Origin: an uncultured Actinomycetes bacterium | Lineage (GTDB): Bacteria; Actinomycetota; Thermoleophilia; Gaiellales; Gaiellaceae | Assembly (NCBI GenBank): GCA_963742925.1 | Contig: CAVUNV010000008.1 | Location: 352,745 to 416,744 of the forward strand | Length of the DNA: 64,000 nucleotides | Direction of reading: 5' to 3' | Shown here: positions 3,220 to 52,219 of the stretch, piece after piece | Numbering within the stretch: the first letter of the stretch is position 1 | Layout of the letters: the number at the start of each line of letters is the position of its first letter | Position numbers and translations under genes: made by a program | The notes under the pieces: generated by a model | Told to the model about the DNA's origin: nothing | The model's database searches: none | What the model saw: the letters and a program-made list of their open reading frames with translations, nothing else

Positions 3220-5579
3220 ATGACCAGACCATTCAAGGGCACCGTCAACGTCGACATCAGGGACTCCGAGCCCGACTGGGAGCCGTTCGAGCCGCCGAAG
3301 GCGCCGGACGGCGCGCCGAGCGTCGTCTACATCGTGCTCGACGACGTCGGCTTCTCGGCGATGAGCTGCTACGGCGGGCCGATCCCGACGCCGAACATCG
3401 ACAAGATCGCGGCCGACGGCGTGCGCTACACGCAGTGGCACACGACCGCGCTCTGCTCCCCCACCCGCTCCTGCCTGCTCACCGGGCGCAACCACACCCG
3501 CAACAGCATGGCCTGCATCACCGAGGCGGCGATCGGCTTCCCGAACGCGAGCGGCACGATCCCGCCCGAGAACGGGATGCTGTCGGAGATCCTCGGCGAG
3601 CTGCGGCTGGAACACCTACATGGTCGGCAAGTGGCACCTCTGCCCCGAGGACGAGATGAACCTCGCCTCGACGCGGCGCAACTGGCCGAGCGGCCGCGGC
3701 TTCGAGCGCTGGTACGGGTTCCTCGGCGCCGAGACGAGCCAGTGGTTCCCCGACCTCGTCTACGACAACCACCTCGTCGACCAGCCGAAGTCGCCCGAGG
3801 AGGGCTACCACCTGACCGTCGACCTGACCGACAAGGCGATCGAGTTCATCATGGACGCGAAGGCGGTCGCGCCCGAGAAGCCGTTCTTCCTCTACTACGC
3901 GCCCGGCGCCTGCCACGCGCCGCACCACGCCCCGAAGGAGTGGATCGACAAGTTCAAGGGCCAGTTCGACATGGGCTACGAGGCGATGCGCGAGCAGACG
4001 CTCGCCCGCCAGAAGGAGCTCGGCATCGTCCCGAAGGACACCGAGCTGCCGCCGATCAACCCGATCGGGACGCCCGAGCGCACCGGGCCCGGACGGCAAG
4101 CCGTTCCCGACGCTCGACGTCACGCGCCCGTGGGACTCGCTCTCGGACGACGAGAAGAAGCTGTTCTGCCGCATGGCCGAGGTCTACGCCGGGTTCCTCG
4201 CGACACGCCGACGACCAGATCGGGCGCCTGCTCGGCTTCCTCGAGGAGTACGGCTGGCGCGAGAACACGCTCGTGATCCTCGTCTCCGACAACGGCGCCT
4301 CCGGCGAGGGCGGCCCGAACGGCTCCGTCAACGAGATGAAGTTCATGCACGGCATCCCCGACAACGTCGAGGACAACCTGCCGCTGCTCGACGACCTCGG
4401 CAGCCCGAAGACGTACAACCACTACCCGAACGGCTGGGCGATGGCGTTCAACACGCCGTTCAAGATGTGGAAGCGCTACGAGTTCAACGGCGGCACGAGC
4501 GACCCGTGCATCGTCTCCTGGCCCGCCGGGATGAAGTCGAAGGGCGAGATCCGCGAGCAGTACCACCACGCGATCGACCTCGTCCCGACCGTCCTCGACG
4601 CGCTCGGCGTCGAGGCCCCCGCAGGCGATCAAGGGCCACGTCCAGAGCCCCTTCGACGGCGTCAGCATGCGCTCGAGCTTCGACGACGCCAAGGCGCCGT
4701 CGACGAGGACGACGCAGTTCTACTCGATGCTCGGCTCACGGGCGATCTGGCACGACGGCTGGAAGGCGGTCACGAACCACCCGACGATCGCCGGCTGGAG
4801 CCACTTCAACGACGACGAGTGGGAGCTGTACCACACCGACGTCGACCGCTCCGAGCTGCACAACCTCGCCAAGGAGAACCCGGACAAGGTCCGCGAGCTC
4901 CAGAACCTCTGGTACGCGGAGGCGGGCGCCAACGGGGCGTTCCCGCTCGACGACCGCTCGGCCGCTCGAGATCCTGCTCACGCCGCGGCCGGTGCTCTCG
5001 CCGCCGCGCGACCGCTACGTCTACTTCCCGGACACGGCCGAGGTGCCCGAGTCGCAGGCGGTGAACGTCCGCAACCGCTCGTACGCGATCGGCGCGCTCG
5101 TCGACATCCCGGCCCCGGGCGCCGAGGGCGTGCTCTTCGCGCACGGCTCGCCGTTCGGCGGCCACGCCCTCTACGTCAAGGACAACCGGCTGCACTACGT
5201 CTACAACTTCGTCGGCATGTTCGAGCAGAAGATCGTCGCGACCGAGGACCTGCCCACCGGCGAGAACCTGATCCTGTCGGCGTCGTTCGACAAGGCCGGC
5301 GAGGACCCGCCCGGCGTCGCCAACGGGACGCTCTCGCTCTGGCACGGCGACAAGAAGGTCGGCGAGGCGCAGATCAAGACGCAGCCCGGCAAGTTCATGA
5401 TCGCCGGCGAGGGGCTCTGCATCGGCCGCGACGGCGGCGCCGGCGTCACCGACGACTACCCGGGGACGGAGCCCTTCCGCTTCACCGGCGGCACGATCCG
5501 GCGGGTCGCCGTCGACGTCAGCGGCGAGCCGTACCTCGACCTCGAGCGCGAGGCCCAGGCGATGCTGATGCGGGAGTAA
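3220..5579 (+). pseudogene. Cys-type arylsulfatase (AtsA-like, ~785 aa), interrupted by five +1 frameshifts as assembled
   Basis: Sulfatase motifs SVVYIVLDDVGFS and the formylglycine site LCSPTRSCLLTGRNH. The protein continues across frames: ...SEILGE|(R)GWNTYMVGKWHL...PINPIGTPERTGP|DGKPFPTLDVTRPW...AEVYAGFLA|HADDQIGRLLGFLEE...LGVEAP|QAIKGHVQSPFDG...FPLDDRS|ALEILLTPRPV...AQAMLMRE. Breaks are at about 3602, 4089, 4203, 4621 and 4962. Confidence 0.85.
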
Positions 5580-5648
5580 GAGAGCCCGGCTGAATCACCG
5601 CGTTCATCACCCGTTCGGACGATTCCCGCCGCCGCTTGCGAGCCACGC

Positions 5649-7004
5649 ATGAGACGCGCCCCGGCGTTGAAGAACGAGGACGCCGTGACGAGCTCTGATC
5701 GTCCACCATCACCGTCGGTCGCGCCTCCCGACCCGTTCGAGCTTCTCCGCAGCCGGAGCTATCTGGTGCTGCTCGTCCTCGGGGCCGTCGTCGGTGTGGT
5801 GGTCGCGTTCGTCGCCTTCTTCTATCTCAAGGGCGTCTCAGAGGCTCAGCAGTACGTCTTTACGACGTTGCCGAAGGAGGTCGGGTTCAGCGGCGAGCCG
5901 GTCTGGTGGCCGCTCCTCTGGCTCCCGCTGGCGGGGCTGCTCGTCGCACTGACGATCCGCTACCTGCCCGGCAGCGCCGGGCACAAGCCGGCCGAGGGAT
6001 TCAAGACCGGTGGCCCCGTGCTTCCGATCGAGCTGCCCGGCATCGTGATCGCATCGCTGGCGACCCTGTGTCTCGGCGTCGTGCTCGGGCCGGAGGCGCC
6101 GCTGATCGCGATCGGCAGCGGCATCGGCGTGCTGGCGGTGCACCTGGTCAAGAAGGACGCGCCCGCGCAGGGCGATCGTCGTGATCGGGGCTGCGGGCAG
6201 CTTCGCCGCGATCAGCACGCTGCTCGGCTCGCCGCTCGTCGGGGCGTTCCTGCTGATGGAGGCGGCCGGGCTCGGCGGCCCGATGCTGGGCGTCGTGCTC
6301 GTGCCGGGCCTGCTCGCCGCCGGCGTCGGCTCGCTCATCTTCGTCGGGCTGGACGACTGGACCGGGTTCGGGACGTTCTCGCTGGCGATCCCGAGCATCC
6401 CGCCCTTCGGCAGCCCCGACGGTGCCGAGTTCCTCTGGGCTGTCGCGATCGGCATCGCCGCCGCCCTGGTCGGCGCAGTCATCCGGCGGGTGGGCCTGTT
6501 CCTCCAGCCGGTCGTCGAGCGCCGAATGGTACGTGCTGACCCCGATGGTCGGCCTGGCGGTCGCCGGGCTGGCGATCGCGTTCGCCGAGGCAACGGGGAG
6601 GAGCTCGTCAGAGGTGCTCTTCTCCGGCCAGAGCCAGCTCCCTCAGCTCATCCAGACCGCCGCCGGCTGGTCGGTCGGGGCGCTCGTGCTGCTCGTCGTC
6701 TGCAAGGGCCTTGCCTACGGTCTCTCGCTCAGCAGCTTCCGAGGCGGCCCCGTCTTTCCCGCCCTCTTCATCGGAGCGGCCGGCGGCATCGCGCTGTCCC
6801 ACGCACCGGGCCTGCCGATGATCGCGGGGTCGGCATGGGCATCGGCGCGATGAGCGTGGCATGCTCGACCTGCCGCTGACCTCCGTCCTCCTCGCCAGCG
6901 TCTTCCTCCAGGCCGACGCAGTCGCCCTGATGCCGCTCATCATCGTCGCCGTCGTCGTCGCCTATGTCACCTCGGCCAGGCTCGCCCCGCCGAAGACGCT
7001 CTAG
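5649..7004 (+). pseudogene. ClC-family voltage-gated chloride channel/antiporter, four frameshifts as assembled
   Basis: ClC motifs GPEAPLIAIGSGIG, GSPLVGAFLLME, GGPVFPALFIGAAGG and AGVGMGIGAMSVAMLDLPLTSVLLASVFL. The reading moves through ORFs 5649.., 6181.., 6422.., back to the 6181 frame and finally to the frame ending at TAG 7002-7004. Breaks are at about 6171 (+1), 6522 (+1), 6828 (-1) and 6858 (-1). Confidence 0.8.
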
Positions 7005-14288: not shown

Positions 14289-16001
14289 TCACCCGGGCGA
14301 TTCTTCGGGGGAGAGCCCCCCTTCCGGGGCGGCCGCCGCGAGCGCCCCCGGCTGCACCGTCGGGATGCCCCGGGTGAACGGGAGAGCGAGGAGCGCGAAG
14401 AGCGCCAGGAGCGACACGGCGACGCGCAGCCCGTCGATCCGGCTCTTCTCGTTCTCGTCCACGATCGCGTTGGTCGTCTGCGGAGGGACGTGCGCGTCCT
14501 TGAGCGCGGCCTCGAGCTGGGCGTCGGACATGAACGGGATCCCGCCGGCGAGCTCCGTCTGTGCCTGCTTGGCGACGCGATCGGGAACTTTCGGGTTGTT
14601 CTCGATGCCGGTGAGGAACGACGCCGTCAGCGCGGAGATGAGCACGGCCCCAGCCAGCGCGGTGCCGATCGACGCGCCGAGCTGTGTTCCCGTGTTCTGA
14701 AGCCCGCCCACCTCGCCGCTCTGCTCGTCGGGCACCGCCGACACGGTCACGCTCCCGAGCTGCGAGGCGATCGCGCCGATCCCGGCACCCGCGAGCAGCA
14801 ACGGCCAGGTGACGATCTCCGCGCCTGCACCGTAGTCCAGCAGGACGTCCAGGAGCACGAGGCCGGCGAACAGCGCCAGGAAGCCGACGCGGATGACCCG
14901 TCGCGGGTTCGCGTTCGGCAACAGCTTGGGAACGCCGACTGCGAAGAGCAGCAGCGACAGCGAGAGCGGAAGCAGCCGGACACCCGTCGCGACGGCCGAC
15001 ATGCCGAGCGCGACCGACAGGAACAGCGGGACGACGAAGAAGATCCCGGCCTGGACCAGGAACAGGAAGAGGAACGAGGTGACGCCGTTGCGCAGCTGGA
15101 GGTTGCGCAGCATTGCCGGGTTGATGAGCGCACCCTCGCCGCGCTCGAGACGGCGGTTTTCCCAGGCGAGGAACAGGACGAGCAGCACGCCGCCCGCGAG
15201 CATGAGCCAGATCACGGCCGAGAGCCCGAGCCACTCGGGAGCTCCAGCCTTGGGCTGCACGAAGCCCCACACGCCCGAGCGCAGGATGCCGAACACGATC
15301 AGACCGAGGCCGGCCGCGGACAGCGCCGTGCCGACCAGGTCGAGCTTGACGCCCTTCTCCGGCGGCGAGTCGGCTATCCGCCGCGCCAGGAAGAGAATCA
15401 CGATCACGATCAGGACCTCGCCGGCGAACACCCACCGCCACGACCAGTAGGTGGTGAACGCGCCGCCGATCACCGGCCCCACCGCGCACGCGATCGCACC
15501 GGCGGCGGCCACGAGCCCGTACGCACGCGGCCGTTCTGACCGTCCGAAGTTCGTGGCGACGAGCGCCACGATCGCCGGCATGATCAGCACCGCACCGATG
15601 CCCTCGAGGAACGACCAGCCGATGAGCAGCGTCGTCAGGTTCTGGGAGAGCGCGGTCGTGAGCGATCCGCACGAGTAGATGACGCACCCGATCGTGAACG
15701 CGCGCTTCCGGCCGATGATCTCCCCGACCTTCCCGCCGGTGATCATCAGGGACGCCATCACCAGCGTGTAGAACGTGATCGCCGTCTGGATCCCGGTCAC
15801 GGTCGTCCCGAGGTCATTGGCCACCGTCGCGATCGCCGTGTTCATCACCGTCGTGTCGAGGGCCATGACGAACTGCCCCGCCGCCAGCGTCATCAGGACC
15901 AGACCCGAACCGCTCACAGCGGTCGAGCGCGAAGAGGGTGCGGTGCCCGCCGTCGTCACGGACGCGATTCTCCCAGACCCTGGTGACGGCGGGAGCAGCA
16001 A
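14289..16001 (-). CDS. MFS transporter, DHA2 (EmrB/QacA, 14-TMS) drug:H+ antiporter type
   Basis: ORF 14289..16001: LDTTVMNTAIATVANDLG, GKVGEIIGRKRAF, LEGIGAVLIMPA and about 14 hydrophobic segments. The start is uncertain; alternatives are at 15959 (GTG) and 15893 (ATG). Confidence 0.85.
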   Translation of the reverse strand: MLLPPSPGSGRIASVTTAGTAPSSRSTAVSGSGLVLMTLAAGQFVMALDTTVMNTAIATVANDLGTTVTGIQTAITFYTLVMASLMITGGKVGEIIGRKRAFTIGCVIYSCGSLTTALSQNLTTLLIGWSFLEGIGAVLIMPAIVALVATNFGRSERPRAYGLVAAAGAIACAVGPVIGGAFTTYWSWRWVFAGEVLIVIVILFLARRIADSPPEKGVKLDLVGTALSAAGLGLIVFGILRSGVWGFVQPKAGAPEWLGLSAVIWLMLAGGVLLVLFLAWENRRLERGEGALINPAMLRNLQLRNGVTSFLFLFLVQAGIFFVVPLFLSVALGMSAVATGVRLLPLSLSLLLFAVGVPKLLPNANPRRVIRVGFLALFAGLVLLDVLLDYGAGAEIVTWPLLLAGAGIGAIASQLGSVTVSAVPDEQSGEVGGLQNTGTQLGASIGTALAGAVLISALTASFLTGIENNPKVPDRVAKQAQTELAGGIPFMSDAQLEAALKDAHVPPQTTNAIVDENEKSRIDGLRVAVSLLALFALLALPFTRGIPTVQPGALAAAAPEGGLSPEESPG

Positions 16002-16045
16002 TGGGGACGGGGCCGACGAACGGCGCTGGCGCTATCGTCGCGGCG

Positions 16046-18197
16046 ATGCGCCCGGCCACGCCAGAGCGTCGTAGGTTGCGTGTCCGCGGCGTCGTTCAGG
16101 GCGTCGGGTTCCGGCCCTTCGTCTACGGGCTGGCAACGCGCCTCGGGCTGGGCGGATTCGTGCTCAACGACGGGGAGGGCGTCACCGTCGAGGTCGAGGG
16201 CGAGCCGCTGCGCTCGACGCATTCGCTTCTGCGTTGCGGGCGGACGCGCCCGTCGCTGGCGCGCGTCGACTCCGTGACGGCCGAGGTCGTCGCGCCGCGC
16301 GGCGAGCGCGGGTTCAGGATCGAGCTGAGCGCCGCGACCGGCGGGACGGCGCCGATCCCGGCCGACGTGGCGACCTGCGACGACTGCCTCCGGGAGCTCT
16401 TCGACCCGGCCGACCGGCGGTACCGCTACCCGTTCGTCAACTGCACGCAGTGCGGGCCGCGGTTCACGATCGTCTGCCGTGTTCCGTACGACCGGCCGTT
16501 CACGACGATGGCGGGATTCGAGCTCTGCGATGCCTGCCGGCGGGAGTACCAGGACCCGGCCGACCGCCGTTTCCACGCCGAGCCGATCGCCTGCCCGGTG
16601 TGCGGGCCACGGCTCTCCATGCCGATCGAGGACGCCGTCGGACTGTTGCTCGAGGGTGCCGTCGTCGCCGTCAAGGGGCTGGGCGGCTACCACCTCGCCT
16701 GCGACGCGGCGAACGAGGATGCCGTCGCTGCGCTGCGCGCCCGCAAGCGCCGCGAGGAGAAGCCGTTCGCGGTGATGACCGTCGACCCGGAGGCACTCGC
16801 GGAGCCGAACGAGACCGAGCGGGAGCTGCTCCGCTCTCGCGAGCGGCCGATCGTGCTCGTGCGCCGCCGCACGGACGCCGCGCTCGCGGCCTCGGTGGCC
16901 CCCGGCACGCCGTGGCTCGGGCTGATGCTGCCGTACACGCCGCTCCACCACCTGCTGCTCGCCGACTGCGAGCGGCCGCTCGTGATGACGAGCGGCAACC
17001 GCTCGGACGAGCCGATCGCCTACGAGGACGAGGAGGCACGCGAGCGCCTGGCCGGCATCGCAGACGCCTTCCTCGCACACGACCGGCCGATCCACCGCCG
17101 CTGCGAGGACTCCGTCGTCCGGGCCTCCTTCCCGGTGCGCCGCTCGCGCGGGTTCGTCCCCACCGCCCTGCCGCTTCCGGTCGCCGCCGCCCACCCGGTC
17201 GTCGCGACGGGCGCGGAGCTGAAGAGCACGTTCTGCGTCGCGCGCGGCGGCGAGGCCTTCCTCTCCGCGCACCTCGGCGACCTCGACTCGGAGCTCGCCT
17301 ACCGGGCCTTCGTCGGCGACCTCGAGCTCTACCTGCGCATGCTCGGGGTCGACCGGCCCGTGATCGCCCACGACCTCCATCCCGAGTACCTGTCGACGAA
17401 GTGGGCGCTCGAGCAGGACGCCGAGCTCGTCGGCGTCCAGCACCACCACGCCCACGCCGCCGCCTGCCTGGCCGAGCACGGCGAGCGGGGCCCCGCTCTC
17501 GCGCTCGTCTTCGACGGGACCGGCTACGGAACCGACGGGACACTGTGGGGCGGCGAGCTCCTGCGCTGCGATCTCCGCGAGCTCGAGCGGCTGGCGCATC
17601 TCGAGCCCGGTGCCGCTTCCGGGCGGGGAGGCCGCCATCAGGGAGCCGTGGCGGACGGCGGCGATCCACCTCGAGCTCGCCGGCCGGCCGGTGCCGTTCG
17701 AGCGCTGGCCGGAGGTGCGAGCGAGCCTGAAGGTGAACGCCCCGCTCTCGTCGGGCATGGGCCGTCTCTTCGACGCCGTGGCAGCGGTGCTCGGCGTCCG
17801 CGAGCGCGTGACGTACGAGGGCCAGGCGGCGATCGAGCTCGAGCAGCTCGCGGACGGGATCGACGCCGAGCCGTACGAGTGGCGCTTCGGCGACGGTCCC
17901 GGCCTCGTCGGTGCCGTGCACGACGATCTCGCCGCCGGACGCCCGCCCGGAGAGATCGCAGCCGCCTTCCACGAGACCGTGGCCGCGGCAAGCGCCCGCG
18001 CCTGCGCCGAGGCGGCCGAGCCGCGCACGGTCGTCCTGAGCGGCGGCAGCTTCCAGAACCTGCGGCTCCTCGCCTCGACGCGGCGACGGCTGGAGGACAT
18101 CGGCTTCCGGGTGCTCGGCCACCGCCTCGTCCCGCCGAACGACGGCGGGATCAGCTACGGCCAGGCGGCGGTGGCGGCGGCGCGGCTCAGTTCCTAA
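16046..18197 (+). CDS. hypF: [NiFe]-hydrogenase maturation carbamoyltransferase HypF (one +1 frameshift near 17607)
   Basis: Acylphosphatase domain LRVRGVVQGVGFRPFVY. Two zinc fingers, CDDCLRELFDPADRRYRYPFVNCTQCGPR and CDACRREYQDPADRRFHAEPIACPVCGPR. YrdC-like VAVKGLGGYHLACDA. Kae1-like C-terminus in ORF 17610..18197 (VVLSGGSFQN). The extra C lies in run 17606-17608. Confidence 0.9.
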
Positions 18198-31710: not shown

Positions 31711-33216
<1,506 letters not shown>

Positions 33217-33220
<4 letters not shown>

Positions 33221-35502: not shown

Positions 35503-35508
35503 GCTGAG

Positions 35509-38066: not shown

Positions 38067-39350
38067 TCGTGACGTCTCTCGACCCGGTACGCGTCGTCGA
38101 CGGCGACCTCTGGGTGGAGAACGGGCGCGTCGCCCTCCCGGGAAGCGGCGTCCGCATCGAGCACGACGGCGCCCTGGTCGTTCCGGGGAACGTCTGCGCG
38201 CACACGCATCTCTACTCGGCGCTCGCACGCGGTATGCCGTACGAGCTGGAGCCGCCGGCGAACTTCCTGCAGATCCTGCAGCGCGTCTGGTGGCGGCTCG
38301 ATCGCGCGCTCGACGAGGACAGCATCAGAGCATCGGCGCTCGTCGGCGGTATGGAGGCCCTGCTCTCGGGCACGACCACGGTGATCGATCACCACGCGTC
38401 GCCGAATGCAATCGACGGGTCGCTCGACGTCATCGAGGACGCCCTCGAGTCGCTGGGCATGCGCTCGGTGCTCTGTTACGAGACCTCCGATCGCGACGGC
38501 TCGGATCGCAGCGTCGCGGGCATCGCCGAGAACTCCCGCTTCCTCGGGCGCATCAGGCGCGCGCAACCGCCGCTCACCCGGGCGATGGTCGGCGCGCACG
38601 CCGCGTTCACGCTCTCCGACGAGACGCTGCTCGCATGCGCCGAGATCGGCCCGCTGCACGTCCACGCCGCCGAGGACGGCGTCGACCGGGGAGCGGTCTC
38701 TCGACTGGCGGCGCTCGGAGTGCTCGACGAGCGGACGCTGCTCGCGCACGGCGTCCACCTCGACGCGGCGGAGATCGCAGCTCGTGCGCGCCGCGAACGC
38801 GACGGTCGCACACAACGCGCGCTCGAACATGAACAACTCGATCGGTCGCGCGTCCGTGGGCACGCTCGGGCCGCGGCTCGCGCTCGGCACCGACGGGATC
38901 GGGTCGGACATGTTCGAGGAGTCGCGCACGGCCTACTTCCGTCTTCGCGAGGACGACATGACCGCCGGAGCCGACTGGCCGCTCGCCCGTCTCGCCGAGA
39001 GCGCGCGGCTCGCCGGGCGTGTGTTCGACGAGCCCCTGCTCGGGACGCTCGAGCCGGGCGCACCTGCAGACCTCGTCGTCCTCGACTACCCGGCCCCGGC
39101 GCCGATCCGCGATGCGACCTTCGCCGGCCACTGGGTCTTCGGTCTCTCGTCCCGTGCCGTTCGCGACGTGATGGTCGCCGGCGAGTGGGTCGTGCGCGAC
39201 CGCCGCCTGGCCAGGGTCGACCAGCGGGAGCTCGCCGCCTCCGCGTGCGGCGAGGCCGAGCGCCTCTGGCAGCGGCTCGCCGCGATCGGGCCACACGAGT
39301 TCGAGCCGAAGGGAGGACGGCGATGGCCGTCGCAGCTGACAACCGCGTAG
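38063..39350 (+). CDS. ssnA: SsnA-like amidohydrolase (chlorohydrolase/aminohydrolase superfamily), one +1 frameshift near 38778
   Basis: ATG 38063 overlaps the upstream [20 protein letters not shown] (metal-binding HxH), [18 protein letters not shown]. It continues in ORF 38406..39350 with [14 protein letters not shown]...[10 protein letters not shown]...PADLVVLDY. Confidence 0.75.
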
Positions 39351-40381: not shown

Positions 40382-40383
40382 CG

Positions 40384-41394
40384 ATGCAACAGACGGCGAT
40401 CGACCGCAAGACGCTGACCGGCCGGGACTTCATCGAGACGATCGACTGGTCGGTGGATGAGATCGAGGAGGCGCTCGCCGTGGCGGGCGAGCTCAAGCAG
40501 GCCCGCAAGGAGGGCAAGCCGCACCGGCTGCTTCCCGACAAGACGCTGTACATGCTCTTCCTGGACAAGTCGACGCGCACGCGGAACGCATTCGAGACCG
40601 GGATGACCCAGCTCGGCGGCCACGCGATCTTCCTCGACGCGGACAAGACCCAGGTCGCGCACGGGGAGAGCCCGAAGGACATGGGCATCATCCTCTCCCG
40701 CTACGGCGAGGGGCTGGCGATCCGCCACGACCTCGCCCCCTACGAGGGCAGCGCCTGGATGCGGGAGATCGCGCGCTGGGCCGACATCCCGCTGATCAAC
40801 CTCCAGTGCGACATCGACCATCCCACGCAGACGCTCGCCGACCTGATGACGCTGCGCGAGAAGCGCGGCGAGAACCTCAAGGGCCTGAAGGTCGCGATGA
40901 CCTGGGCCTACGCGCCGTCCTATGCGCGGCCGCTGTCGGTGCCGCAGGGCGTTGCGACCCTCTTCCCCCGCTTCGGCATGGACGTCGTGATCGCCCACCC
41001 GCCCGGCTTCGACCTGATGCCCGAGGTGCTGGAGAAGGCAGAGGCGGCGGCCGCCCAGGCGGGCACGTCGATCAGCTTCGCGAGGAGCATGGACGAGGCG
41101 TTCGAGGACGCCGACGTCGTCTATCCGAAGTCCTGGGGCAGGCTCGACGCCTTCGCGGACGGGTCGAAGGCACTGGCGGAGTCGGGCGCCTACAGCAACT
41201 GGATCTGCGACGCCCGCATGCTCGAGCTCGCGAGCCCGGACGTCCTCTACATGCACTGCCTGCCCGCCGACCGCGGCCGCGAGGTGACGGACGAGGTCAT
41301 CGACGGCCCGCACTCGGTCGTCTTCGACGAGGCGGAGAACCGCATGCACACGGCAAAGGCGCTGATGGCGCTGACGATGGGAGGATACGCATGA
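40384..41394 (+). CDS. ygeW: YgeW-type (knotted) carbamoyltransferase
   Basis: FLDKSTRTRNAFETG, KTQVAHGESPKDMG, INLQCDIDHPTQTLADL, VAMTWAYAPSYARPLSVPQG, DVVYPKSWG, LYMHCLPADRG. These strings match my memory of E. coli YgeW rather than OTC, which has a D-x-x-x-S-M-G motif. Intact at 336 aa. Confidence 0.75.
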   Translation: MQQTAIDRKTLTGRDFIETIDWSVDEIEEALAVAGELKQARKEGKPHRLLPDKTLYMLFLDKSTRTRNAFETGMTQLGGHAIFLDADKTQVAHGESPKDMGIILSRYGEGLAIRHDLAPYEGSAWMREIARWADIPLINLQCDIDHPTQTLADLMTLREKRGENLKGLKVAMTWAYAPSYARPLSVPQGVATLFPRFGMDVVIAHPPGFDLMPEVLEKAEAAAAQAGTSISFARSMDEAFEDADVVYPKSWGRLDAFADGSKALAESGAYSNWICDARMLELASPDVLYMHCLPADRGREVTDEVIDGPHSVVFDEAENRMHTAKALMALTMGGYA

Positions 41395-42342
41395 GGCGGA
41401 AGGAGCGCCGTCGTCGCCATCGGCGGCAACTCGCTGATCAAGGACAAGGAGCATCAGACCGTCCGCGACCAGTACATCGCCGCGGGCGAGACCTGCTGGC
41501 ACATCGCCTCGATGATCAGGGACGGCTGGGACGTCGCGATCGGCCACGGGAACGGGCCGCAGGTGGGCTTCATCCTGCGCCGCTCGGAGCTCGCGGCCCA
41601 CGAGCTCCACGAGGTGCCGCTCGACGTCTGCGGAGCCGACAGCCAGGGCGCGATCGGCTATGCGCTGGCGCAGAACCTGGAGAACGACTTCCGCCGGCTC
41701 GGCATCGAACGTCACGCCGTCTCGGTCGTGACCCAGGTCGAGGTGGCCGCCGACGACCCGGCCTTCACCGATCCGTCCAAGCCGATCGGCTCGTTCATGG
41801 ACGAGGAGACGGCGATGCGCCGCCGCGACGCCGACGGTTGGGCCGTTCGCGAGGACGCCGGCCGCGGGTGGCGCAGGGTCGTCGCGTCGCCGGCGCCGAT
41901 CCGCATCGTCGAGGTGGACGCGGTGCGGGCACTGATCGAAGCCGGGTTCGTCGTGATCTCCACCGGCGGCGGGGGAATCCCGGTCGTGACCAACGCGGAC
42001 GGCGACCTCGAGGGCATCGCGGCCGTGATCGACAAGGACCTCGCGTGCTCGCTCCTCGCCACCTGCATCGACGCGGAGCTCTTCCTCGTCACGACGGCCG
42101 TGGAGCGGGTCGCGCTCGACTTCGGAACGCCCGAGCAACGGTGGATCGACCGGATGACGCTCTCGGAGGCCAGGGAGCGCCTGGCAGAGGGCAGGCACTT
42201 CGCCGAGGGCAGCATGGCGCCGAAGATCCGGGCCGTCATCGGCTTCCTCGAGCGCGGAGGCGGCGAGGCGATCGTCACCGACCCCGAGAACGTCGAGCGC
42301 GCGCTGGCCGGCGAGACCGGCACCCACATCGTCGCCGACTGA
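41391..42342 (+). CDS. arcC: Carbamate kinase (one +1 frameshift just after the start, near 41409)
   Basis: ATG 41391 overlaps the ygeW-like TGA. After the shift: VVAIGGNSLIKD...VAIGHGNGPQVG...VISTGGGGIPV...AVIDKDLA...FAEGSMAPKI. Confidence 0.85.
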
Positions 42343-42349
42343 CGCGACC

Positions 42350-43847
42350 TTACGACGGCGCCGGATTCTCGCCGGCCATCCGCAGGCCGATCTCCTCCAC
42401 GTCGGTCTTGTCCTCGACGTCGAAGATCTGTCCCTCGTACATGACGACGATCCTGTCGTTGAGCGCGAGGATCTCGTCGAGGTCCTCGCTGATCAGCAGC
42501 ACACCGATCCCGTGCTCGGCAGCGTCGACGAGGTACCTGTGCACGGTCTCGATCCCGGAGACATCGAGCCCGTGGGTGGGAGAAGCGGCGATCAGCACCT
42601 TCGGCTCGACCGGAGAACTCGCGGGCGAGGACGAGCTTCTGGAGGTTTCCGCCGGACAATGTGCGAGTCTCGACGGTCGCACTCGGCGTCCTGATGTCGT
42701 AGCGGTCGATCAGCTCGTCGGCGTGTGCACGCATTCGCCGCAGCGGGAGCATCGGCCCGACCGACTCGTGCCGGTACGACTTCAGCGCCAGGTTCACCGT
42801 GATCGACAGGCCCGGCGCTACGCCTGTGCCCAGCCGGTCGGCAGGCACGTAGGCGATTCCCGCATCGATGGCGGCGCGAGGATCGCCGTTCCTGATCGAC
42901 TCTCCGGCCACCCGGACCGACCCTTTCGTCACCGGCCGTAGCCCGGTGATCGCCTCGGCGAGCTCCTGCTGGCCGTTCCCGGACACCCCGGCGACCGCCA
43001 CGATCTCACCCGCCCCGATCGTCAGCGTCACGTCCTTGACCGTCGGCGCGCCGCGGTCACCCTCGACCCAGATGCCTTCCAACTCGAGCGCCGCCCTCCG
43101 GTCGCGACGCGCAGGGGCCGACCGGCTCACCGCTTCGATCTCGTGGCCGACCATCAATGCGGCAAGCGATCGTGGAGTCGCCTCGTCGGTGGGAACGGTC
43201 GCCATCGTCCGGCCCATCCTCAGCACGGTGACACGGTCGGAGACCGCCATCACCTCGTGCAGCTTGTGGGAGATGAAGATGACCGTCCGGCCTTCGGCGG
43301 CCATCTGGCGCAGGGTCACGAAGAGCGTCTTGGCTTCCTGCGGGGTGAGGACCGCTGTCGGCTCGTCGAGGATCAGGACCCGCGCTTCCTGGTAGAGCGC
43401 GTTCAGGATCTCGACGCGCTGCTGCTCGCCGACGGCGAGCTGCCAGATCCGCGCACCGGGATCGACGGCCAGCGAGTAACGCTCGCCGAGCTCTCGCACC
43501 TGGCGTGCGACCGCGTGGGAGTTGACCAGGAACTTGCGGCCTTCACCGCGCCTGTCGCCGAGCATGATGTTCTCGGCGACGGTGAATCGCTCGACCAGCC
43601 GGAATTGCTGGTGCACCATGCCGACACCGGCGTCGAGGGCGTCGCGGGGGGAGGAGAAGCTGACAGGCTTCCCGTTGAGCTCGATCTCGCCTTCGTCGGG
43701 CCGGTAGAGACCGGTGAGGATGTGCATCAGCGTCGTCTTGCCGGCGCCGTTTTCGCCGAGCAGGGCGTGCACCTCCCCGGCGGCCGCCTCGAAATCAACA
43801 TGGTCGTTGGCGAGCACGCCCGGGAAGCGCTTCGTGACCTGCAACAT
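42350..43847 (-). CDS. ABC transporter ATPase with duplicated NBDs, BMP/nucleoside-sugar (RbsA/NupA-like) type, one +1 frameshift near 42620
   Basis: From ATG 43847: NBD1 GENGAGKTT, VGEQQRVEIL, LILDEPT. NBD2 GVSGNGQQEL, LSGGNLQKLVLARE, then VEPKVLIAASPTHGLDV...LLISEDLDE in ORF 42350..42682. Confidence 0.85.
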
Positions 43848-43926
43848 CGCAACAGCAGGGGAGGCGCCGCGACCAGCGACGCCTCCCGCACCTAGAAGCA
43901 AGTCGGGGGCCTGTTGCCCCACCGCA

Positions 43927-45061
43927 CTAGCCGGGCGGCAGGACGTGAGAGACCGACCCGACAACCCCCTTCACCAACCACTGCATCGAGTACAGCTGAT
44001 CCCCGCCTGGTCGACAAACACTTCCCCTTCGCGATCCTGCAGCTTGCCAGCCTGGTCATACACCGGCCCACAAAACTCGTTGAACGTGCCGCTCTGGATC
44101 GCCTTCTGCTTCGCCGCGATCAACGCCCTCGTCTTCGAGCTCACGATTCGGGCCATACGGCGCCAACTTCGTGAACCCATCATTGATCGACCCGTAATAA
44201 AACCCCGTCTTCCACGTGCCGGCCATCGCCGCCTTCACACGCTTCAAGTAGTACAGGCCCCAGTTGTAGACGGACGCCGTCAGCCACTGCTTCGGCGCGA
44301 ACTTCTGAGCGTTCGAGTCATAGCCGACCCACGGAACACCATGCTTCTCCGCATACACACCCGCCGCCGGACTATCCACATTCTGACCCAACACATCCGC
44401 ACCCGCCGCGACCAGATTCTGGGCGGCCGCAGCCGTCTCCTTCGGCGGCGAGAACCACGAATTCGTCCAAATGATCTTCACCTTCGCCCCCGGATGCGTC
44501 GCCTGCACACCCAACGCGAACGCATCCGTGTGCCGAACCACCTCCGGGGTCCCAAACGGCACCACATACCCGATCAACACCCTTCTTCGTCGCCGCCCCA
44601 GCGGCCATGCCCGACAGGTAGATCGTGTCCTCCGCCGCCCCGAAATACTCCGCCTGATTCCTCTTCACCTGCGACCCCGTCGCCTGCTCGAACAACACCT
44701 TCGGATACTTCTGCCACAACTGACCATTCACACCAAACTCGAGCATCCCGAACGAGGTCGCAAAAATCATGTTGTAACCATCACGAACAAGCCCGGCGAC
44801 GATCTGCGGCACCGACGCGTTGCTGAACACATTCTCCTTGTACGTCGTCTGCACCTTGCTACCCAACATCTTCTGCACGTACAACCGACCCGCATCATGC
44901 GCCTGCGACCACCCACCATCGTTATGCGGCCCCGGATAAATAAACGCCACCTTGTACACGGCGGCCCGAGACGCGGTGCCGGCGGAGACGGTGCCCGCCA
45001 CAGCGAGTGCCACCACGAACAGGAGCCCGGCCAGCATCAGCCTAGCCCTCTTCATTGTCAT
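43927..45061 (-). pseudogene. BMP-family (basic membrane protein / PnrA-like, nucleoside-type) ABC substrate-binding protein, three frameshifts
   Basis: Signal MTMKRARLMLAGLLFVVALAVAG. KVAFIYPGPHNDGGWSQAHDAG, then LIGYVVPFGTPEVVRH...WFSPPKE (ORF 44056..44580), then IVSSKTRALIAAKQKAIQSGTFNEFCGPVYDQAGK (ORF 43971..44183), then DQLYSMQWLVKGVVGSV ending at TAG 43929-43927. Breaks are near 44575 (+1), 44180 (+1) and 43985 (-1 in a G-run). Confidence 0.8.
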
Positions 45062-45584: not shown

Positions 45585-46492
45585 GACGCTTCGGCTCGAC
45601 CTCCGTCGTCGAGCTTGTCGGCCAGGTAGGCCCAGTCCCGCTCGAACCGGTAGGCGTGCCGGTCGGGCGGCCCCGGCGCCGACGTCTCCAGCCACCTCAC
45701 CGTTCCACCGCGCGTCTCGTAGAACGCGTGCACGCAGCCGACGCCGGTCCAGAACACGTCGCCCGGCCGGAGCGAGTGACGATCGCCGTCCGCGACGACG
45801 TCGACCTCGCCTTCGAGCATGACATACGACTCCTCGAACGGATGGTCGTGCGGGTGCGCGACGGCCCCGGGGTGGTAGCCGACCATGAACATCGTGTGGA
45901 GCTGGGCGTCCAGGCGCTTGTCGACGAGCATCTTCACCGTGATCCCGCTGTAGAGGAGCGCAGCCGTCGACATGCTCGCCGAGACCGTCGGAGCCGCGAC
46001 CTGTGCACCCTCTGTGAGCCGCTCGACCTCCATGTCGCCGGCCGACAGGTGGAAGAGATTGCGGTTTCTCGGGTCGCGCAGGTCGAGCTCGACCGCCGAA
46101 TCGACGGGCGCCTCCCCGACGAAGAACGTGTCCGGCGGCTCACCCGGGCCGCGCGGACGCGGCGAAGCCATCTCGATCCACCGGCCCTCGCCCTCGCACC
46201 GCCAGGCGTGCGGAACGCCGACGGGGATGGCCCCGCATGCATCCGGCTCGAGCTTCAGGCCTCGGCCGTCGAGGTAGAGGACAGGCGTTCCCGAGAGGAC
46301 GTAGAAGCCGGTCTCGAACGAGTGCAGGTGCGTGTCGACATGACCGTTCTCGAGCTCGATCAGGCTGAGCCCGGTGTGGACAGCGCCCGAGTCGGCGCCG
46401 ATCAGCACCGCCCGCCGCAGTCCCCGGCTGTGGCCGGGCAGCGCGGGCGCGAACTCGATGTCCTCGCGGCGGATCAGGTGGTATCGCTTCAT
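45581..46492 (-). CDS. Bicupin protein (two cupin barrels)
   Basis: ORF 45581..46492. The second barrel has HPHDHPFEESYVMLEGE...GDVFW...HAF (H-x-H-x4-E...H). The first barrel has HLHSFETGFYVLSG...VPHAW. The substrate is unknown. Confidence 0.7.
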   Translation of the reverse strand: MKRYHLIRREDIEFAPALPGHSRGLRRAVLIGADSGAVHTGLSLIELENGHVDTHLHSFETGFYVLSGTPVLYLDGRGLKLEPDACGAIPVGVPHAWRCEGEGRWIEMASPRPRGPGEPPDTFFVGEAPVDSAVELDLRDPRNRNLFHLSAGDMEVERLTEGAQVAAPTVSASMSTAALLYSGITVKMLVDKRLDAQLHTMFMVGYHPGAVAHPHDHPFEESYVMLEGEVDVVADGDRHSLRPGDVFWTGVGCVHAFYETRGGTVRWLETSAPGPPDRHAYRFERDWAYLADKLDDGGRAEAS

Positions 46493-47386
46493 ACCGCGCC
46501 TGGAGTCTCCCGCAGCTGCAGGAAGAGCGCCATGAAGTCCATGTCCGCATACCCGCGTTCGGCAGCGGCGTCGAGAAGCGTGCGAAGCTGCCGGGTGAAG
46601 GGCAGCGCCAGGTCACTCTCGCCGGCGAGACGAAGGACGAGGTCGACGTCCTTGAGCATCATCGCGGTGGTGAAGGTGGCGGAGTAGTCGCCCCGCAGCA
46701 GCGGGTCGGTCTTGTACGCGATGAACGGCGAGCCGACGACGGAGGAGTTGATCACCTCGAGGAGTGTCCTCTGGTCGATACCGGCGGCCTCACCGAGCAC
46801 GAGCCCCTCGCCGAGCAACTCGGCGGTTCCGCCGATCAGGATCTGGAGGACGAGCTTGACGACGCGCGCTCGCTCGCCTTCTCCGACGTAGAGCACCTTC
46901 GGCCCGATCGCGTGGAGCAACTCGTCGACGCGTTCGACGACGTCGGCGGAGCCGGAGACGATGATCGTCAGATTCCCGGCGCGGACGACCGACGGATTGC
47001 CGCTGACCGGGGCTCTCAGGTAGGCGACGCCCGCCTCGGCCGCCCGCTCGGCGACGCGTTCCGAGACCGTTACCGAGACCGTGCTCATGTCGATCAGCAC
47101 CGTCTCTCGCGGCGCGCGCGACAGCAGCCCCGCCTCGCCGAGAACGACCGCCTCGAGCGCGTCGTCGTCCGCGAGCATCGTCAGGCAGACGTCTGCCTCC
47201 CGCAGGGCATCGGCCGACGATGCCAGGATCCTTGCTCCTCGCCCGGCAAGCAGCCTCTGCTTTCTCGATCGTCCGGTTGAAGACGGCAAGCGGGAACCCG
47301 CTGTCGAGAATGCGCTCGGCGATCGGGAGACCCATCTTTCCGAGGCCGACGACGGCCACGCGGTTGCGGACGGCTGCGTTCGCCAC
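46489..47386 (-). CDS. 3-hydroxyisobutyrate / tartronate-semialdehyde reductase family NAD(P) oxidoreductase (one +1 frameshift near 47254)
   Basis: N-terminus VAVVGLGKMGLPIAERILDSGFPLAVFNRTIEKAE in ORF 46790..47386. The rest, LLAGRGARILASSADALREADVCLTMLADD...VSGNPSVVRAGNLTIIVSG...KLVLQILIG, is in ORF 46489..47289. Its stop overlaps the bicupin ATG (ATGA at 46489-46492). Confidence 0.8.
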
Positions 47387-48171: not shown

Positions 48172-48191
48172 GCTAGCCTCAGACGAGTGCG

Positions 48192-48750: not shown

Positions 48751-48809
48751 TGTTTGCGTGTGTGAAGTATATCGGATCGCGGCTCCATCAACCGAGACAG
48801 GAGATGAAC

Positions 48810-49450: not shown

Positions 49451-49455
49451 TCTCA

Positions 49456-49528
49456 TGGAGCTAGGCGGGCTCGAACCGCCGACCTCCTGGGTGCGATCCA
49501 GGCGCTCTCCCAGCTGAGCTATAGCCCC
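49456..49528 (-). tRNA. tRNA-Ala(CGC): tRNA-Ala (anticodon CGC)
   Basis: Reverse complement: GGGGCTA TA GCTC AGCTGGGA GAGC G CCTGG ATCGCAC CCAGG AGGTC GGCGG TTCGAGC CCGCC TAGCTCC A. The cloverleaf folds, the G3:U70 alanine identity pair is present, and the anticodon loop is A-U-CGC-A-C. CCA is not encoded. Confidence 0.92.
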
Positions 49529-49540
49529 GCACCGGGAAGT

Positions 49541-49825: not shown

Positions 49826-49871
49826 CTCGTCCTCCTGATCCGTGGGCGGCGACGACTTACGATATCGCCGG

Positions 49872-50813: not shown

Positions 50814-50907
50814 AGGAGGAGGGCTGCGCCGTCTGGCGGTCTTCCGGTGTGGGTAGGGTTGTCGGCGTCCGAGGCCGTTCACGAGCCGGGAGAAAGCGAG
50901 GGCGAGC

Positions 50908-52219
50908 GTGGACGACGGCGAGTTCGAGTTCGACTTCTTCTCCGAGCGCCGCACGGCGACCGGGGACGATCCGGGAGAGGTCCTCTGGGAGGAGGATCCT
51001 TCCGACCCGCACGGGTCCAACCTGCAGAGGCCCGACCTGCACGGAGTCGACCCGCACGAACCGGAGCCGCGCGTGCGCCGCGGCCCTGCGACCGCCCCGC
51101 CACCGCAGGTCGTCATGCGCCGCCGCGTTGCCCTCGCTGCTGCGATCGCGCTGCTGCTCCTGATCATCCTGCTCATCGTGGTAACGAGCGGTGGAGGCGG
51201 CGGAGGCGGCGGCTACCGCGGCTACGTGCAGAAGGTCACGCCGATCGCGTCCGACTCGGAGCAGGCCGGCGCCGCACTGGCCGCAGCCCTCGGTGGCACG
51301 CAGAGCTCGAAGGCGCTGGGCGCGAAGCTGGACGACCTGATCGCGCGGACGGTCCGCGACATCACGCAGCTGCAGGCGCTGACGCCGCCGAAGGCCCTTC
51401 TGCCGGTACAGAGCCAGGCGCTGGCGGCGCTCGACCTGCGCCTCCGCGGCCTGCAGGGGGTCCGCGACTCGCTCTCGCAAGCGTCGGGAGCAACCGACAC
51501 GTCCTGGGCGGCGGTTCTGTCCAGCCAGGTCGACGACCTGATCGCGAGCGACACCATCTGGGACGGCTCCGTGCGCGCGCCGGCCAACGGCGTGCTGCAG
51601 GCCGGCGGGCTCGGAGGCGTCGTTCTTCCCACCGTCGCGGTTCGTCACCAACGCGACCTCGCTGCGGAAGTCGATCGGCACGCGGCTCGCGGGAGGCAGC
51701 GTGGCCACGACCGGGCCCGTCCTCAAGCTCGGCGACACCGGGCCGGCCGTCACGAGCTGGCAGATCCAGCTCAACGCCTGGCTGAAGGCCACCGGCTCCA
51801 CGCAGACACCGCTCACGCCCGACGGCAACTTCGGCGCCTCCACCCAGACGACCACCCAGGCCCTGCAGACCTCCGCCGGCCTCACCCCCGACGGCATCGT
51901 CGGCCCCAGCACCCGCCAGGCACTCCACACCGCGCTCGCGGGCACGAAGACGCCCTCCTCGACCGCCACGGCGGCGCCGATCCTCAAGCTCGGCGACACC
52001 GGGCCGGCGGTCACGAGCTGGCAGACCCAGCTCAACGCCTGGCTGAAGGCCACCGGCTCCACGCAGACACCGCTCACGCCCGACGGCAACTTCGGCGCCT
52101 CCACCCAGACCACCACCCAGGCCCTGCAGACCTCCGCCGGCCTCACCCCCGACGGCATCGTCGGCCCCAGCACTCGCCAGGCGCTCCACACCGCGGTCGC
52201 GAACGGATCGAGAGGCTAG
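50908..52219 (+). CDS. Membrane-anchored protein with two tandem peptidoglycan-binding (PG_binding_1) domains (one +1 frameshift near 51634)
   Basis: Acidic N-terminus, TM helix VALAAAIALLLLIILLIVV, a G8 tract and a helical region. After the shift (ORF 51701..52219) there are two copies of LKLGDTGPAVTSWQ.QLNAWL...LTPDGNFGASTQTTTQALQTSAGLTPDGIVGPSTRQAL. Confidence 0.75.
51720..52195 (+). repeat. 261-bp-period tandem duplication (two ~215-bp copies, ~98% identical) encoding the PG-binding domains
   Basis: 51720-51934 versus 51981-52195: I count 5 mismatches by eye. Confidence 0.85.

What the first reader, a model, noticed from the sequence alone, without database searches (positions are those of the whole stretch)
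3220..51700. About 30 single-base frameshifts, about 5:1 insertions, clustered in particular genes while their protein sequences remain highly conserved
By following conserved protein sequence across frames, I place breaks at approximately these positions.
- Insertions: 3602, 4089, 4203, 4621, 4962, 6171, 6522, 17607, 22071, 26656, 31753, 31852, 33137, 34084, 35118, 37580, 37667, 38778, 41409, 42620, 44180, 44575, 47254, 51634.
- Deletions: 6828, 6858, 26831, 43985. Three of these four are in G/C runs.

Several insertions are not in homopolymers: t at 3602, a at 4203, g at 4621.

The distribution is uneven. There are five in the sulfatase, four in the ClC gene and about nine across 31.7-38.8 kb. 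There are none in 7.0-17.6 kb or in 51.7-64 kb.

I saw no in-frame nonsense codons and no obvious decay in the affected genes. That argues for insertion-biased consensus errors (for example an unpolished long-read or low-coverage assembly) rather than old pseudogenes. The clustering, however, keeps recent inactivation or locally poor coverage open.
Basis: seen in the sequence. Interest (0 to 1): 0.6.

Follow-up and report, generated by a model that had tools for sequence, protein, structure and literature searches.

The report
Assembly-error frameshifts in a soil MAG
About thirty one-base frame breaks in 15 well-conserved genes of an uncultured soil actinobacterium are almost certainly long-read consensus errors, many apparently from two strain variants written side by side, so this is a data-quality problem and not gene decay.

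Summary
I confirm 30 one-base frame breaks in 15 genes between 3.2 and 51.7 kb: 27 insertions and 3 deletions.

- 43985 is an insertion, not a deletion.
- 33204 and 44038 were missed.
- 44180 is really 44146.

Removing or restoring one base per site turns every gene into a single ORF of orthologue length with near full-length Pfam domains.

The breaks are not biology:
- Short-read contigs 96-100% identical to the window, from independent metagenomes, lack the extra base at all seven insertion sites they cross. They show no other coding 1-nt indel, and none at all in 48-64 kb.
- The sulfatase carries five breaks, yet its dN/dS is about 0.1 with no nonsense codons.
- Sister Nanopore-only MAGs show the same insertion-biased breaks. 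Short-read MAGs essentially do not.

Likely mechanism for the insertions: the consensus emitted both alleles of a strain SNP in tandem. Three sites show this directly, and 15 of 16 alignment-pinned insertions are synonymous third-position doublets (P about 1e-4). A replicate in sister MAGs was not significant (10 of 16). The three deletions shorten G/C runs.

Interest is low.

The parts
3220..5579 (+). Arylsulfatase gene with five extra bases (3603, 4085, 4203, 4621, 4958). Corrected length 784 aa.
   Evidence: (94% identity to intact 785-aa orthologues)
3603..3603 (+). +1 insertion. Window reads CTGC; relatives read CTC, CTG or CGC.
4085..4085 (+). +1 insertion (G next to CCC/GGG)
4203..4203 (+). 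+1 insertion (A, GCG|A|CAC), not in a homopolymer
4621..4621 (+). +1 insertion (G after CCC)
4958..4958 (+). +1 insertion (T after CGC), not in a homopolymer
5649..7004 (+). ClC-type H+/Cl- antiporter gene with two insertions and two deletions. Corrected length 451 aa.
6171..6171 (+). +1 insertion
   Evidence: (20 of 20 orthologues)
6522..6522 (+). +1 insertion
   Evidence: (20 of 20)
6828..6828 (+). -1 deletion in a G run (G5 read as G4)
6858..6858 (+). -1 deletion (GCC read as GC)
15938..18197 (+). HypF carbamoyltransferase gene with one insertion at 17607. The start codon is uncertain.
   Evidence: HypF_C_2 2-241/241 across the junction
17607..17607 (+). +1 insertion (CCC|G|GTG)
21616..22747 (+). 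PotA-like ABC ATPase gene with one insertion at 22071. Corrected length 376 aa.
22071..22071 (+). +1 insertion inside the LSGGQ signature (window reads GGGC)
   Evidence: (X25: 2 of 2 contigs leave out 1 base)
25936..26907 (-). MDR-family oxidoreductase gene with a compensating -1/+1 pair. The ORF stays 323 aa but 58 codons are out of frame.
   Evidence: ADH_N is found only after correction
26656..26656 (-). +1 insertion
26831..26831 (-). -1 deletion in a G/C run (G5 read as G4 on the coding strand)
31711..33220 (+). PALP-family (cysteine-synthase-like) gene 1 with four insertions. Corrected length 501 aa, ending at a GTGA overlap as in the relatives.
31753..31753 (+). +1 insertion 14 codons after the TTG start
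   Evidence: no orthologue HSP is possible this close to the start
31847..31847 (+). +1 insertion (CCG|C|GCG)
   Evidence: X28 read leaves it out
33138..33138 (+). +1 insertion (ACG|A|CAG)
33204..33204 (+). +1 insertion (window reads GTGC).
33217..34597 (+). PALP-family gene 2 with one insertion. Corrected length 459 aa.
34084..34084 (+). +1 insertion (window reads GGTC; alleles GTC and GGT)
   Evidence: X27
34542..35502 (+). Asp/Orn carbamoyltransferase-like gene with one insertion. Corrected length 319 aa.
35118..35118 (+). +1 insertion. Window reads CCGCCCG; short reads give CCC-CCG and CCG-CCG.
35509..38066 (+). Xanthine-dehydrogenase-family molybdoenzyme gene (fused 2Fe-2S) with two insertions. 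Corrected length 851 aa.
37580..37580 (+). +1 insertion (window TCCG, relatives TCG)
37665..37665 (+). +1 insertion (window CTTGACG, relatives CTG-ACG or CTCG-CG)
38063..39350 (+). Amidohydrolase gene with one insertion. Corrected length 428 aa.
38779..38779 (+). +1 insertion. Window reads ATC-GCAG-CTC; one sample has ATC-GAG-CTC and another ATC-CAG-CTC.
   Evidence: 2 of 2 crossing contigs lack a base; none carries it
41391..42342 (+). Carbamate kinase gene with one insertion in codon 5. Corrected length 316 aa.
41402..41402 (+). +1 insertion (window AAGG, relatives AAG)
   Evidence: X44
42350..43847 (-). Double ABC ATPase gene with one insertion. Corrected length 498 aa.
42609..42609 (-). 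+1 insertion (coding strand reads GGTC)
43927..45061 (-). BMP/PnrA-like substrate-binding lipoprotein gene with four insertions. Corrected length 376 aa.
44003..44006 (-). +1 insertion inside a length-variable stretch (+4 relative to most relatives).
44038..44038 (-). +1 insertion.
44146..44146 (-). +1 insertion (coding strand AAT|C|GTG).
44577..44577 (-). +1 insertion (coding strand reads GTTG)
46489..47386 (-). 3-hydroxyisobutyrate-dehydrogenase-like gene with one insertion. Corrected length 298 aa.
   Evidence: NAD_binding_2 1-161/161 across the junction
47254..47254 (-). +1 insertion
51115..52219 (+). Membrane-anchored protein with two PG_binding_1 domains and one probable insertion. Corrected length 367 aa. 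The start codon is uncertain.
51628..51628 (+). Probable +1 insertion (window reads CCCA). Least supported site: no orthologue or read check.

Best explanation
The 30 frame breaks are errors of the assembled consensus, not mutations of the organism. The window is a contig of an uncultured Gaiellales/Thermoleophilia-like soil actinobacterium. It was very probably built from long reads alone (Flye plus Medaka-type Nanopore MAG) at modest coverage, from a population containing several closely related strains.

- **Insertions (27).** Most arise where co-existing strains differ by a SNP. Instead of choosing one allele, the consensus step emitted both bases in tandem, adding one base and shifting the frame. 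This would explain four things: insertions dominate; many are outside homopolymers; they sit mostly at synonymous third codon positions; and they cluster in polymorphic segments while the encoded proteins stay conserved.
- **Deletions (3).** These are ordinary under-calls of G/C runs.

What is shown:
- The breaks exist.
- They are absent from near-identical short-read DNA.
- The genes are under purifying selection.
- Sister long-read MAGs share the error type.
- At three sites the window equals the union of two observed alleles.

What is inferred:
- The sequencing technology of the source.
- That allele merging causes most, and not just some, of the insertions.
For: 1. Contigs from independent short-read metagenomes at 96-100% identity leave out exactly one base at 3602-4, 22072, 31847, 34087, 35114/5, 38777/8 and 41402. 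These are all seven insertion sites they cross. They show no other 1-nt coding indel in 3-48 kb and no indel at all in 48-64 kb.
2. At 38778 both crossing contigs lack a base. One is otherwise identical over 131 nt, and no contig carries the extra base.
3. At lower stringency, relatives' contigs also omit one base at 4091, 4203, 4614/4622 and 4962.
4. Every gene closes to orthologue length after one-base edits, with near full-length Pfam domains across most junctions. The corrected sulfatase is 94% identical to intact orthologues and the corrected ClC 84-88%.
5. On the window branch of the sulfatase dN/dS is about 0.10, with no nonsense codons despite five frameshifts.
6. Control at protein level: 38 Nanopore-only MFD loci carry 23 sporadic frame junctions (17 are +1) in 129,298 aligned residues. 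The 42 other, mostly short-read, loci carry 2 in 95,992.
7. Control at DNA level: 16 private 1-nt insertions and 4 deletions in MFD relatives, against 0 in the others.
8. The MFD MAGs are Flye plus one round of Medaka with no short-read polishing. Their authors note Nanopore errors at low coverage. R10.4 needs about 40x coverage for near-finished consensus.
9. Allele merging, direct cases: different samples omit different adjacent bases. At 38777 vs 38778 they give CAG and GAG where the window has GCAG. At 35114 vs 35115 they give CCC-CCG and CCG-CCG where the window has CCGCCCG. At 3602/3/4 they give CGC, CTC and CTG where the window has CTGC.
10. Allele merging, statistic: 15 of 16 alignment-pinned insertions form a synonymous doublet with a neighbouring third-position base, against a random-insertion null of 0.43-0.49 (P = 3e-5 to 2e-4).
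11. The three deletions shorten G5, CC and G5 runs.
Against: - The source reads and the source record could not be found. The technology and coverage of this contig are therefore inferred from its relatives and from its error signature.
- The short-read contigs come from other samples. They are near-identical strains, not the sequenced DNA itself.
- Only 7 of the 27 insertion sites are crossed by near-identical short reads, and none of the 3 deletion sites.
- The allele-merge statistic did not replicate significantly in sister MAGs: 10 of 16 against a null of about 0.45-0.49, P = 0.12-0.20.
- A looser version of the test had no power.
- Over all 27 sites the count is 19 of 27 (P = 0.004-0.02).
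- The window's break density, about 0.6 per kb over 3.2-51.7 kb, is roughly ten times the average of sister MFD loci. This contig would have to be unusually poorly supported or unusually polymorphic.
Confidence: 0.9

Rival explanations
1. Random residual long-read errors at low coverage, with no role for strain polymorphism. The consensus simply kept spurious inserted bases where few reads covered the contig.
For: Sister MAGs show the same insertion-biased breaks, but their private insertions are not significantly enriched at synonymous doublets (10 of 16). Clustering could reflect local coverage dips. Coverage dependence of Nanopore consensus indels is documented.
Against: In the window, 15 of 16 pinned insertions lie next to a third codon position with a synonymous alternative base (P about 1e-4). 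At 3 of the 7 sites crossed by near-identical short reads, the site is itself polymorphic and the window equals both alleles in tandem. With strain SNP density of a few per cent, that coincidence is unlikely for random insertions.
Confidence: 0.3
2. Genuine, very recent inactivating mutations in this one strain, for example an insertion-prone mutator lineage or incipient genome decay. The genes would then be true young pseudogenes.
For: The breaks are really in the deposited sequence. They cluster in particular genes, with 4-5 per gene in four genes. The short-read evidence comes from other samples, so strain-specific mutations cannot be formally excluded.
Against: - It requires 27 insertions against 3 deletions, the opposite of the deletion bias established for bacterial pseudogenes (general knowledge).
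- It requires 4-5 frameshifts in single genes with no nonsense codon and dN/dS about 0.1.
- The flanks are 99-100% identical to short reads that lack the base.
- The same signature is seen in sister long-read MAGs but not in short-read MAGs of the same clade.
- A codon-phase preference has no mutational rationale.
Confidence: 0.04
3. Recoding: programmed +1 ribosomal frameshifting or transcriptional slippage lets the cell express these genes despite the frame breaks.
For: All corrected products are conserved and full length, as expected if they are made.
Against: - The sites share no sequence motif and have no slippery or stop-codon context (contexts listed).
- No orthologue has any of the shifts.
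- Near-identical strains lack them.
- Three breaks are -1.
- One extra base lies in non-coding DNA (45093).
Confidence: 0.01

Closest known systems
Frameshift errors from residual indels in Nanopore-only assemblies and MAGs (the problem addressed by IDEEL checks, proovframe and short-read polishing)
   Same: One-base indels split otherwise conserved genes. The breaks are absent from short-read data. They recur in sister Flye/Medaka MAGs of the Microflora Danica long-read catalogue. The three deletions are the classical homopolymer under-calls.
   Different: The textbook case is homopolymer-driven and often deletion-rich. Here insertions outnumber deletions 9:1, half are outside homopolymers, and they sit preferentially at synonymous third positions.
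Strain collapse in strain-oblivious long-read metagenome assembly (for example Flye collapsing conspecific strains, the problem addressed by Strainberry)
   Same: [quoted passage not shown] Three window sites equal the union of two alleles seen in near-identical short reads.
   Different: The papers I read describe chimeric consensus and lower identity. They do not describe SNPs being rendered as tandem two-allele insertions. That step is my inference and could not be checked on reads.
Bacterial pseudogenes from genome decay (for example in host-restricted or recently niche-shifted lineages)
   Same: Multiple frameshifts interrupt recognisable genes.
   Different: The window shows no deletion bias, no nonsense codons, no relaxed selection and no larger deletions. 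The shifts are also absent from near-identical population DNA.

Membership tests
Long-read consensus (assembly) indel artefact | The indel is absent from accurate independent sequence of the same or a near-identical population | tested here: met
   Seven of the seven insertion sites crossed by contigs of at least 96% identity lack the base. There are no other coding 1-nt indels, and none in 48-64 kb.
Long-read consensus (assembly) indel artefact | Affected genes show no evolutionary sign of inactivation | tested here: met
   dN/dS is about 0.10 on the window branch and there are no nonsense codons. All genes close to full length after one-base edits.
Long-read consensus (assembly) indel artefact | The same error class occurs in assemblies made by the same technology and not in short-read assemblies of the clade | tested here: met
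   23 junctions in 129,298 aligned residues (MFD Nanopore) against 2 in 95,992 (others). Private 1-nt indels are 20 against 0.
Long-read consensus (assembly) indel artefact | The contig derives from a long-read-only, unpolished or low-coverage assembly | not testable with these tools
   The source record and reads were not found. This is inferred from the relatives.
Long-read consensus (assembly) indel artefact | The source-sample read pileup does not support the indel | not testable with these tools
   No source run could be identified.
Homopolymer-length miscalls | The indel changes the length of a homopolymer run | tested here: inconclusive
   This holds for all 3 deletions. Of the 27 insertions, 13 are not next to an identical base, and the run-length distribution resembles the background.
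Strain-SNP merged into a tandem two-allele insertion (proposed sub-mechanism) | The site is polymorphic in the population and the consensus equals both alleles side by side | tested here: met
   This is directly visible at 3603, 35118 and 38779. The other four sites crossed by near-identical reads are uninformative.
Strain-SNP merged into a tandem two-allele insertion (proposed sub-mechanism) | Insertions are enriched at positions where SNPs are expected (synonymous third positions) | tested here: inconclusive
   Window: 15 of 16 pinned sites, P about 1e-4. Sister MAGs: 10 of 16, not significant.
Pseudogenes / genome decay | Deletion-biased indels, nonsense codons and relaxed selection | tested here: not met
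   27 insertions against 3 deletions, zero nonsense codons, dN/dS about 0.1.
Programmed frameshifting / recoding | A conserved shift site with a slippery motif, shared by orthologues | tested here: not met
   There is no common context. No orthologue is shifted.

The most novel reading that the evidence does not exclude
The extra bases are real and mark a strain that recently acquired an insertion-prone mutator phenotype, or that tolerates +1 shifts. That would be a burst of about 27 single-base insertions in conserved genes with almost no accompanying substitutions. My evidence comes from near-identical strains in other samples, not from the sequenced DNA itself, so this is not strictly excluded.
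Probability: 0.03. Interest if true: 0.7.

Novelty: not a real feature. Interest (0 to 1): 0.12.

Why it matters
For biology the finding matters little, because the genes are almost certainly intact in the organism.

For data users it matters more. About 0.6 frame breaks per kb over 49 kb will fragment or garble at least 15 gene calls in this contig. The same artefact is visible in public sister MAGs, so pangenome, pseudogene and metabolic inferences from such records need frameshift-aware handling.

One case would escape length-based checks. The MDR oxidoreductase at 25936-26907 keeps an intact-looking 323-aa ORF although 58 of its codons are out of frame.

If the allele-merge mechanism holds generally, these insertions could be recognised and repaired from the long reads alone, and they would flag strain-polymorphic segments.

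Tried and rejected
- **Long-read source run.** A run search restricted to NANOPORE libraries listed nothing.
- **The window's own record.** A look-up with the 718-aa uncorrected ORF 35509-37665 found no record. I ran no further search on guessed start codons.
- **Strand calls of the GC3 HMM.** These proved unreliable, so I used only its phase and took strands from homology.
- **33137 as a gene boundary.** At first it looked like one, because nearly all relatives change frame there. The DNA alignment showed that the boundary lies 80 nt downstream and that there are two insertions before it.
- **35505.** It appeared as a junction cluster but is an ordinary stop-then-ATG boundary.
- **First allele-merge statistic.** The version with a +/-3-nt search was too permissive (null 0.84, P about 0.2). 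I replaced it with a strict version.
- **Replicate in sister MAGs.** It was not significant.
- **Shared motif or recoding signal at the sites.** Considered and dismissed after inspecting the contexts.

Full report
**What the window is.** It is about 70% G+C and codes densely. Its nearest relatives in a species-level genome collection are uncultured Gaiellales/Thermoleophilia (Actinomycetota) MAGs from soil and sediment. They reach at most about 85% amino-acid identity for the gene used as query. Many of them are 'MFD...' Microflora Danica long-read MAGs. Others are short-read MAGs with k141/NODE contig names. The window's own record could not be identified.

- In such G+C-rich DNA, long ORFs occur in every frame, so ORF lists are useless for this question. 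For example, 3220-5064 is an unbroken 614-aa ORF even though the real gene changes frame five times within it.
- I tracked the phase of the G+C-rich third codon position with a seven-state HMM and translated the segments.
- The segments are coherent pieces of single proteins. The stitched sulfatase gives a full-length Sulfatase hit (2e-53) and the stitched ClC gives Voltage_CLC.
- The ABC signature LSGGQ is split at 22071.

**Formal placement of the breaks.**
- **Sulfatase.** The stitched protein is 94% identical over 100% of its length to intact 785-aa orthologues. A DNA alignment with two of them (90% nt identity) shows five window-private single extra bases at 3603, 4085, 4203, 4621 and 4958. 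It also shows one in-frame 3-nt difference.
- **ClC.** All 20 orthologues tested give +1 near 6160 and +1 near 6540. The tail shows two -1 steps near 6830 and 6860 in 13 of them, or a combined -2 in the other 7. The tail reads GLPMIAG | VGMGIGAMSVA | MLDLPLTSVLL across three frames.
- **31.7-45 kb.** tblastn chaining of ORFs from 80 syntenic loci and gene-by-gene MAFFT alignments give private single extra bases at 31847, 33138, 33204, 34084, 35118, 37580, 37665, 38779, 41402, 42609, 44577, 44146 and 44038. One more lies within 44003-44006.
- **Other sites.** 17607 has one chained orthologue and a Pfam domain crossing the junction. 26656 and 26831 follow from frame reading and a Pfam domain crossing the repaired stretch. 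47254 is supported in the same way. 31753 follows from frame reading and ORF closure. 51628 has only GC3 phase and ORF closure.
- **ORF closure.** After removing or adding one base per site, all 15 genes become single ORFs of orthologue length. Examples are sulfatase 784 aa, ClC 451, XDH-like 851 and BMP 376.

- The tally is 27 insertions and 3 deletions.
- '43985 deletion' is an insertion. The tail of the BMP gene runs through frames 1>2>0>1, which means three +1 steps.
- 33204 was missed because the frame after it coincides with that of the next gene. 44038 was also missed.
- 44180 is really 44146.
- 35505 and the other HMM transitions are normal gene boundaries.

**Error or biology?**
1. 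*Independent short-read DNA.*
   - Contigs from shallow soil metagenomes of one study (X25, X26, X33, X34, X44) and from deeper freshwater, sediment and other metagenomes (X27, X28, X45) match the window at 96-100%.
   - Their only 1-nt differences in coding sequence are 'left out 1' at 3602-4, 22072, 31847, 34087, 35114/5, 38777/8 and 41402. Every one is a claimed insertion site.
   - They also differ at a few non-coding positions: 45093, 13770 and 13811 are extra in the window, and 9612, 13752 and 15989 are missing.
   - In 48-64 kb there is no indel difference at all.
   - At 38778 the only two crossing contigs both lack a base. One is otherwise identical over 131 nt, and no contig carries the extra base.
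   - At 85% stringency, relatives' contigs also omit a base at 4091, 4203, 4614/22 and 4962.
2. *Selection.* The corrected sulfatase has dN/dS 0.08-0.09 against intact orthologues and about 0.10 on its own branch, with no nonsense codon. That is incompatible with a gene dead long enough to collect five frameshifts.
3. *Direction.* A ratio of 27 insertions to 3 deletions is the opposite of the deletional bias known for bacterial decay (general knowledge).
4. *Technology control.*
   - With the window's corrected proteins as probes, 38 MFD long-read loci carry 23 sporadic frame junctions in 129,298 aligned residues: 17 are +1, four are -1, one is -2 and one is +2.
   - The 42 other, mostly short-read, loci carry 2 in 95,992 residues, both in one locus.
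   - At DNA level, MFD relatives have 16 private 1-nt insertions and 4 deletions, against none in the others.
   - L019 has three indels within 180 nt of the BMP gene. L082 has a sulfate transporter in three pieces where L081 has one.
   - The MFD catalogue was built from Nanopore reads only, with Flye plus one round of Medaka, and its authors note Nanopore-associated errors in low-coverage MAGs. R10.4 needs about 40x coverage for near-finished consensus.

**Why insertions, why outside homopolymers, why clustered?**
- Thirteen of the 27 insertions are not next to an identical base. The composition of the inserted bases matches the genome, and clustering is significant.
- The clue came from the short reads: at one site, different samples omit different adjacent bases.
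  - At 38777/38778 one sample has ATC-CAG-CTC and another ATC-GAG-CTC. The window has ATC-GCAG-CTC.
  - At 35114/35115 the samples have CCC-CCG and CCG-CCG. The window has CCGCCCG.
  - At 3602-4 the contigs have CGC, CTC or CTG. The window has CTGC.
- The window therefore equals two population alleles written in tandem.
- If this is general, insertions should sit where strain SNPs sit, mostly at synonymous third positions.
  - A first, loose test had no power.
  - A strict test requires the synonymous doublet to include the inserted base and uses only sites pinned by MAFFT. It gives 15 of 16 against a random-insertion null of 0.43-0.49 (P = 3e-5 to 2e-4).
  - Over all 27 sites the count is 19 of 27 (P = 0.004-0.02).
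  - The replicate on private insertions of sister MAGs goes the same way but is not significant (10 of 16).
- I therefore rate 'artefact' at about 0.9. Within that, I rate 'most insertions are merged strain alleles' at roughly 0.6.
- The three deletions shorten G5, CC and G5 runs, which is the classical homopolymer under-call.

**Comparison with what is known.** Frameshift errors in long-read assemblies and MAGs are well known, and so is the collapse of conspecific strains by Flye. The papers I read do not describe the tandem two-allele signature. It is at most a methodological nuance, not a biological feature.

**Verdict.** This is not a real biological feature, and interest is low.

Noticed in passing
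window 61473-64000: tRNA-Ser(TGA) at 61473-61561 is followed by lower-G+C DNA (about 0.64). This DNA carries a DUF3800 gene, a 266-aa ORF matching only the C-terminal part of the phage-integrase catalytic domain, and an RCC1-repeat ORF. It is possibly an integrated element at the tRNA.
   Followed up: partly
window 31711-45061: A gene cluster holds two PALP enzymes, an ATCase/OTCase-like gene, an XDH-family molybdoenzyme with a fused 2Fe-2S domain, an amidohydrolase, a luciferase-like oxidoreductase, an OTCase, a carbamate kinase, an ABC ATPase and a BMP binding protein. The arrangement is conserved in many Gaiellales/Thermoleophilia and Chloroflexota MAGs. From memory it resembles nucleobase-degradation clusters that end in carbamate kinase.
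   Followed up: no
window 25936-26907 (-): The MDR oxidoreductase has a compensating -1/+1 pair 175 nt apart. The ORF keeps its full 323-aa length while 58 codons are out of frame, so length-based quality checks such as IDEEL would miss it.
   Followed up: yes
window 9612, 13752, 13770, 13811, 15989, 45093: These are one-base differences between the window and 97-99% identical short-read contigs in non-coding DNA. Three are extra in the window and three are missing. Three of them fall within 60 nt at 13.75-13.81 kb. They are either more consensus errors, invisible to frame analysis, or natural intergenic variation.
   Followed up: partly
L019 (about 4.4-5.4 kb of the locus), L082 15716-17897, L021, L012, L001: Public sister long-read MAG records carry the same kind of breaks. 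L019 has at least five private 1-nt insertions in its BMP gene. L082 has a sulfate transporter split into 311 + 233 + 152 aa where L081 has one 592-aa gene.
   Followed up: partly
window about 51700-52219 (+): The corrected PG_binding protein contains two nearly identical modules of about 75 aa each (…LKLGDTGPAVTSWQ.QLNAWLKATGSTQTPLTPDGNFGAS…RQALHTA). This is a recent tandem duplication at DNA level.
   Followed up: no
window 49456-49528 (-): tRNA-Ala(CGC). It explains the very high metagenome word depth in the 49.07-49.6 kb bin.
   Followed up: yes
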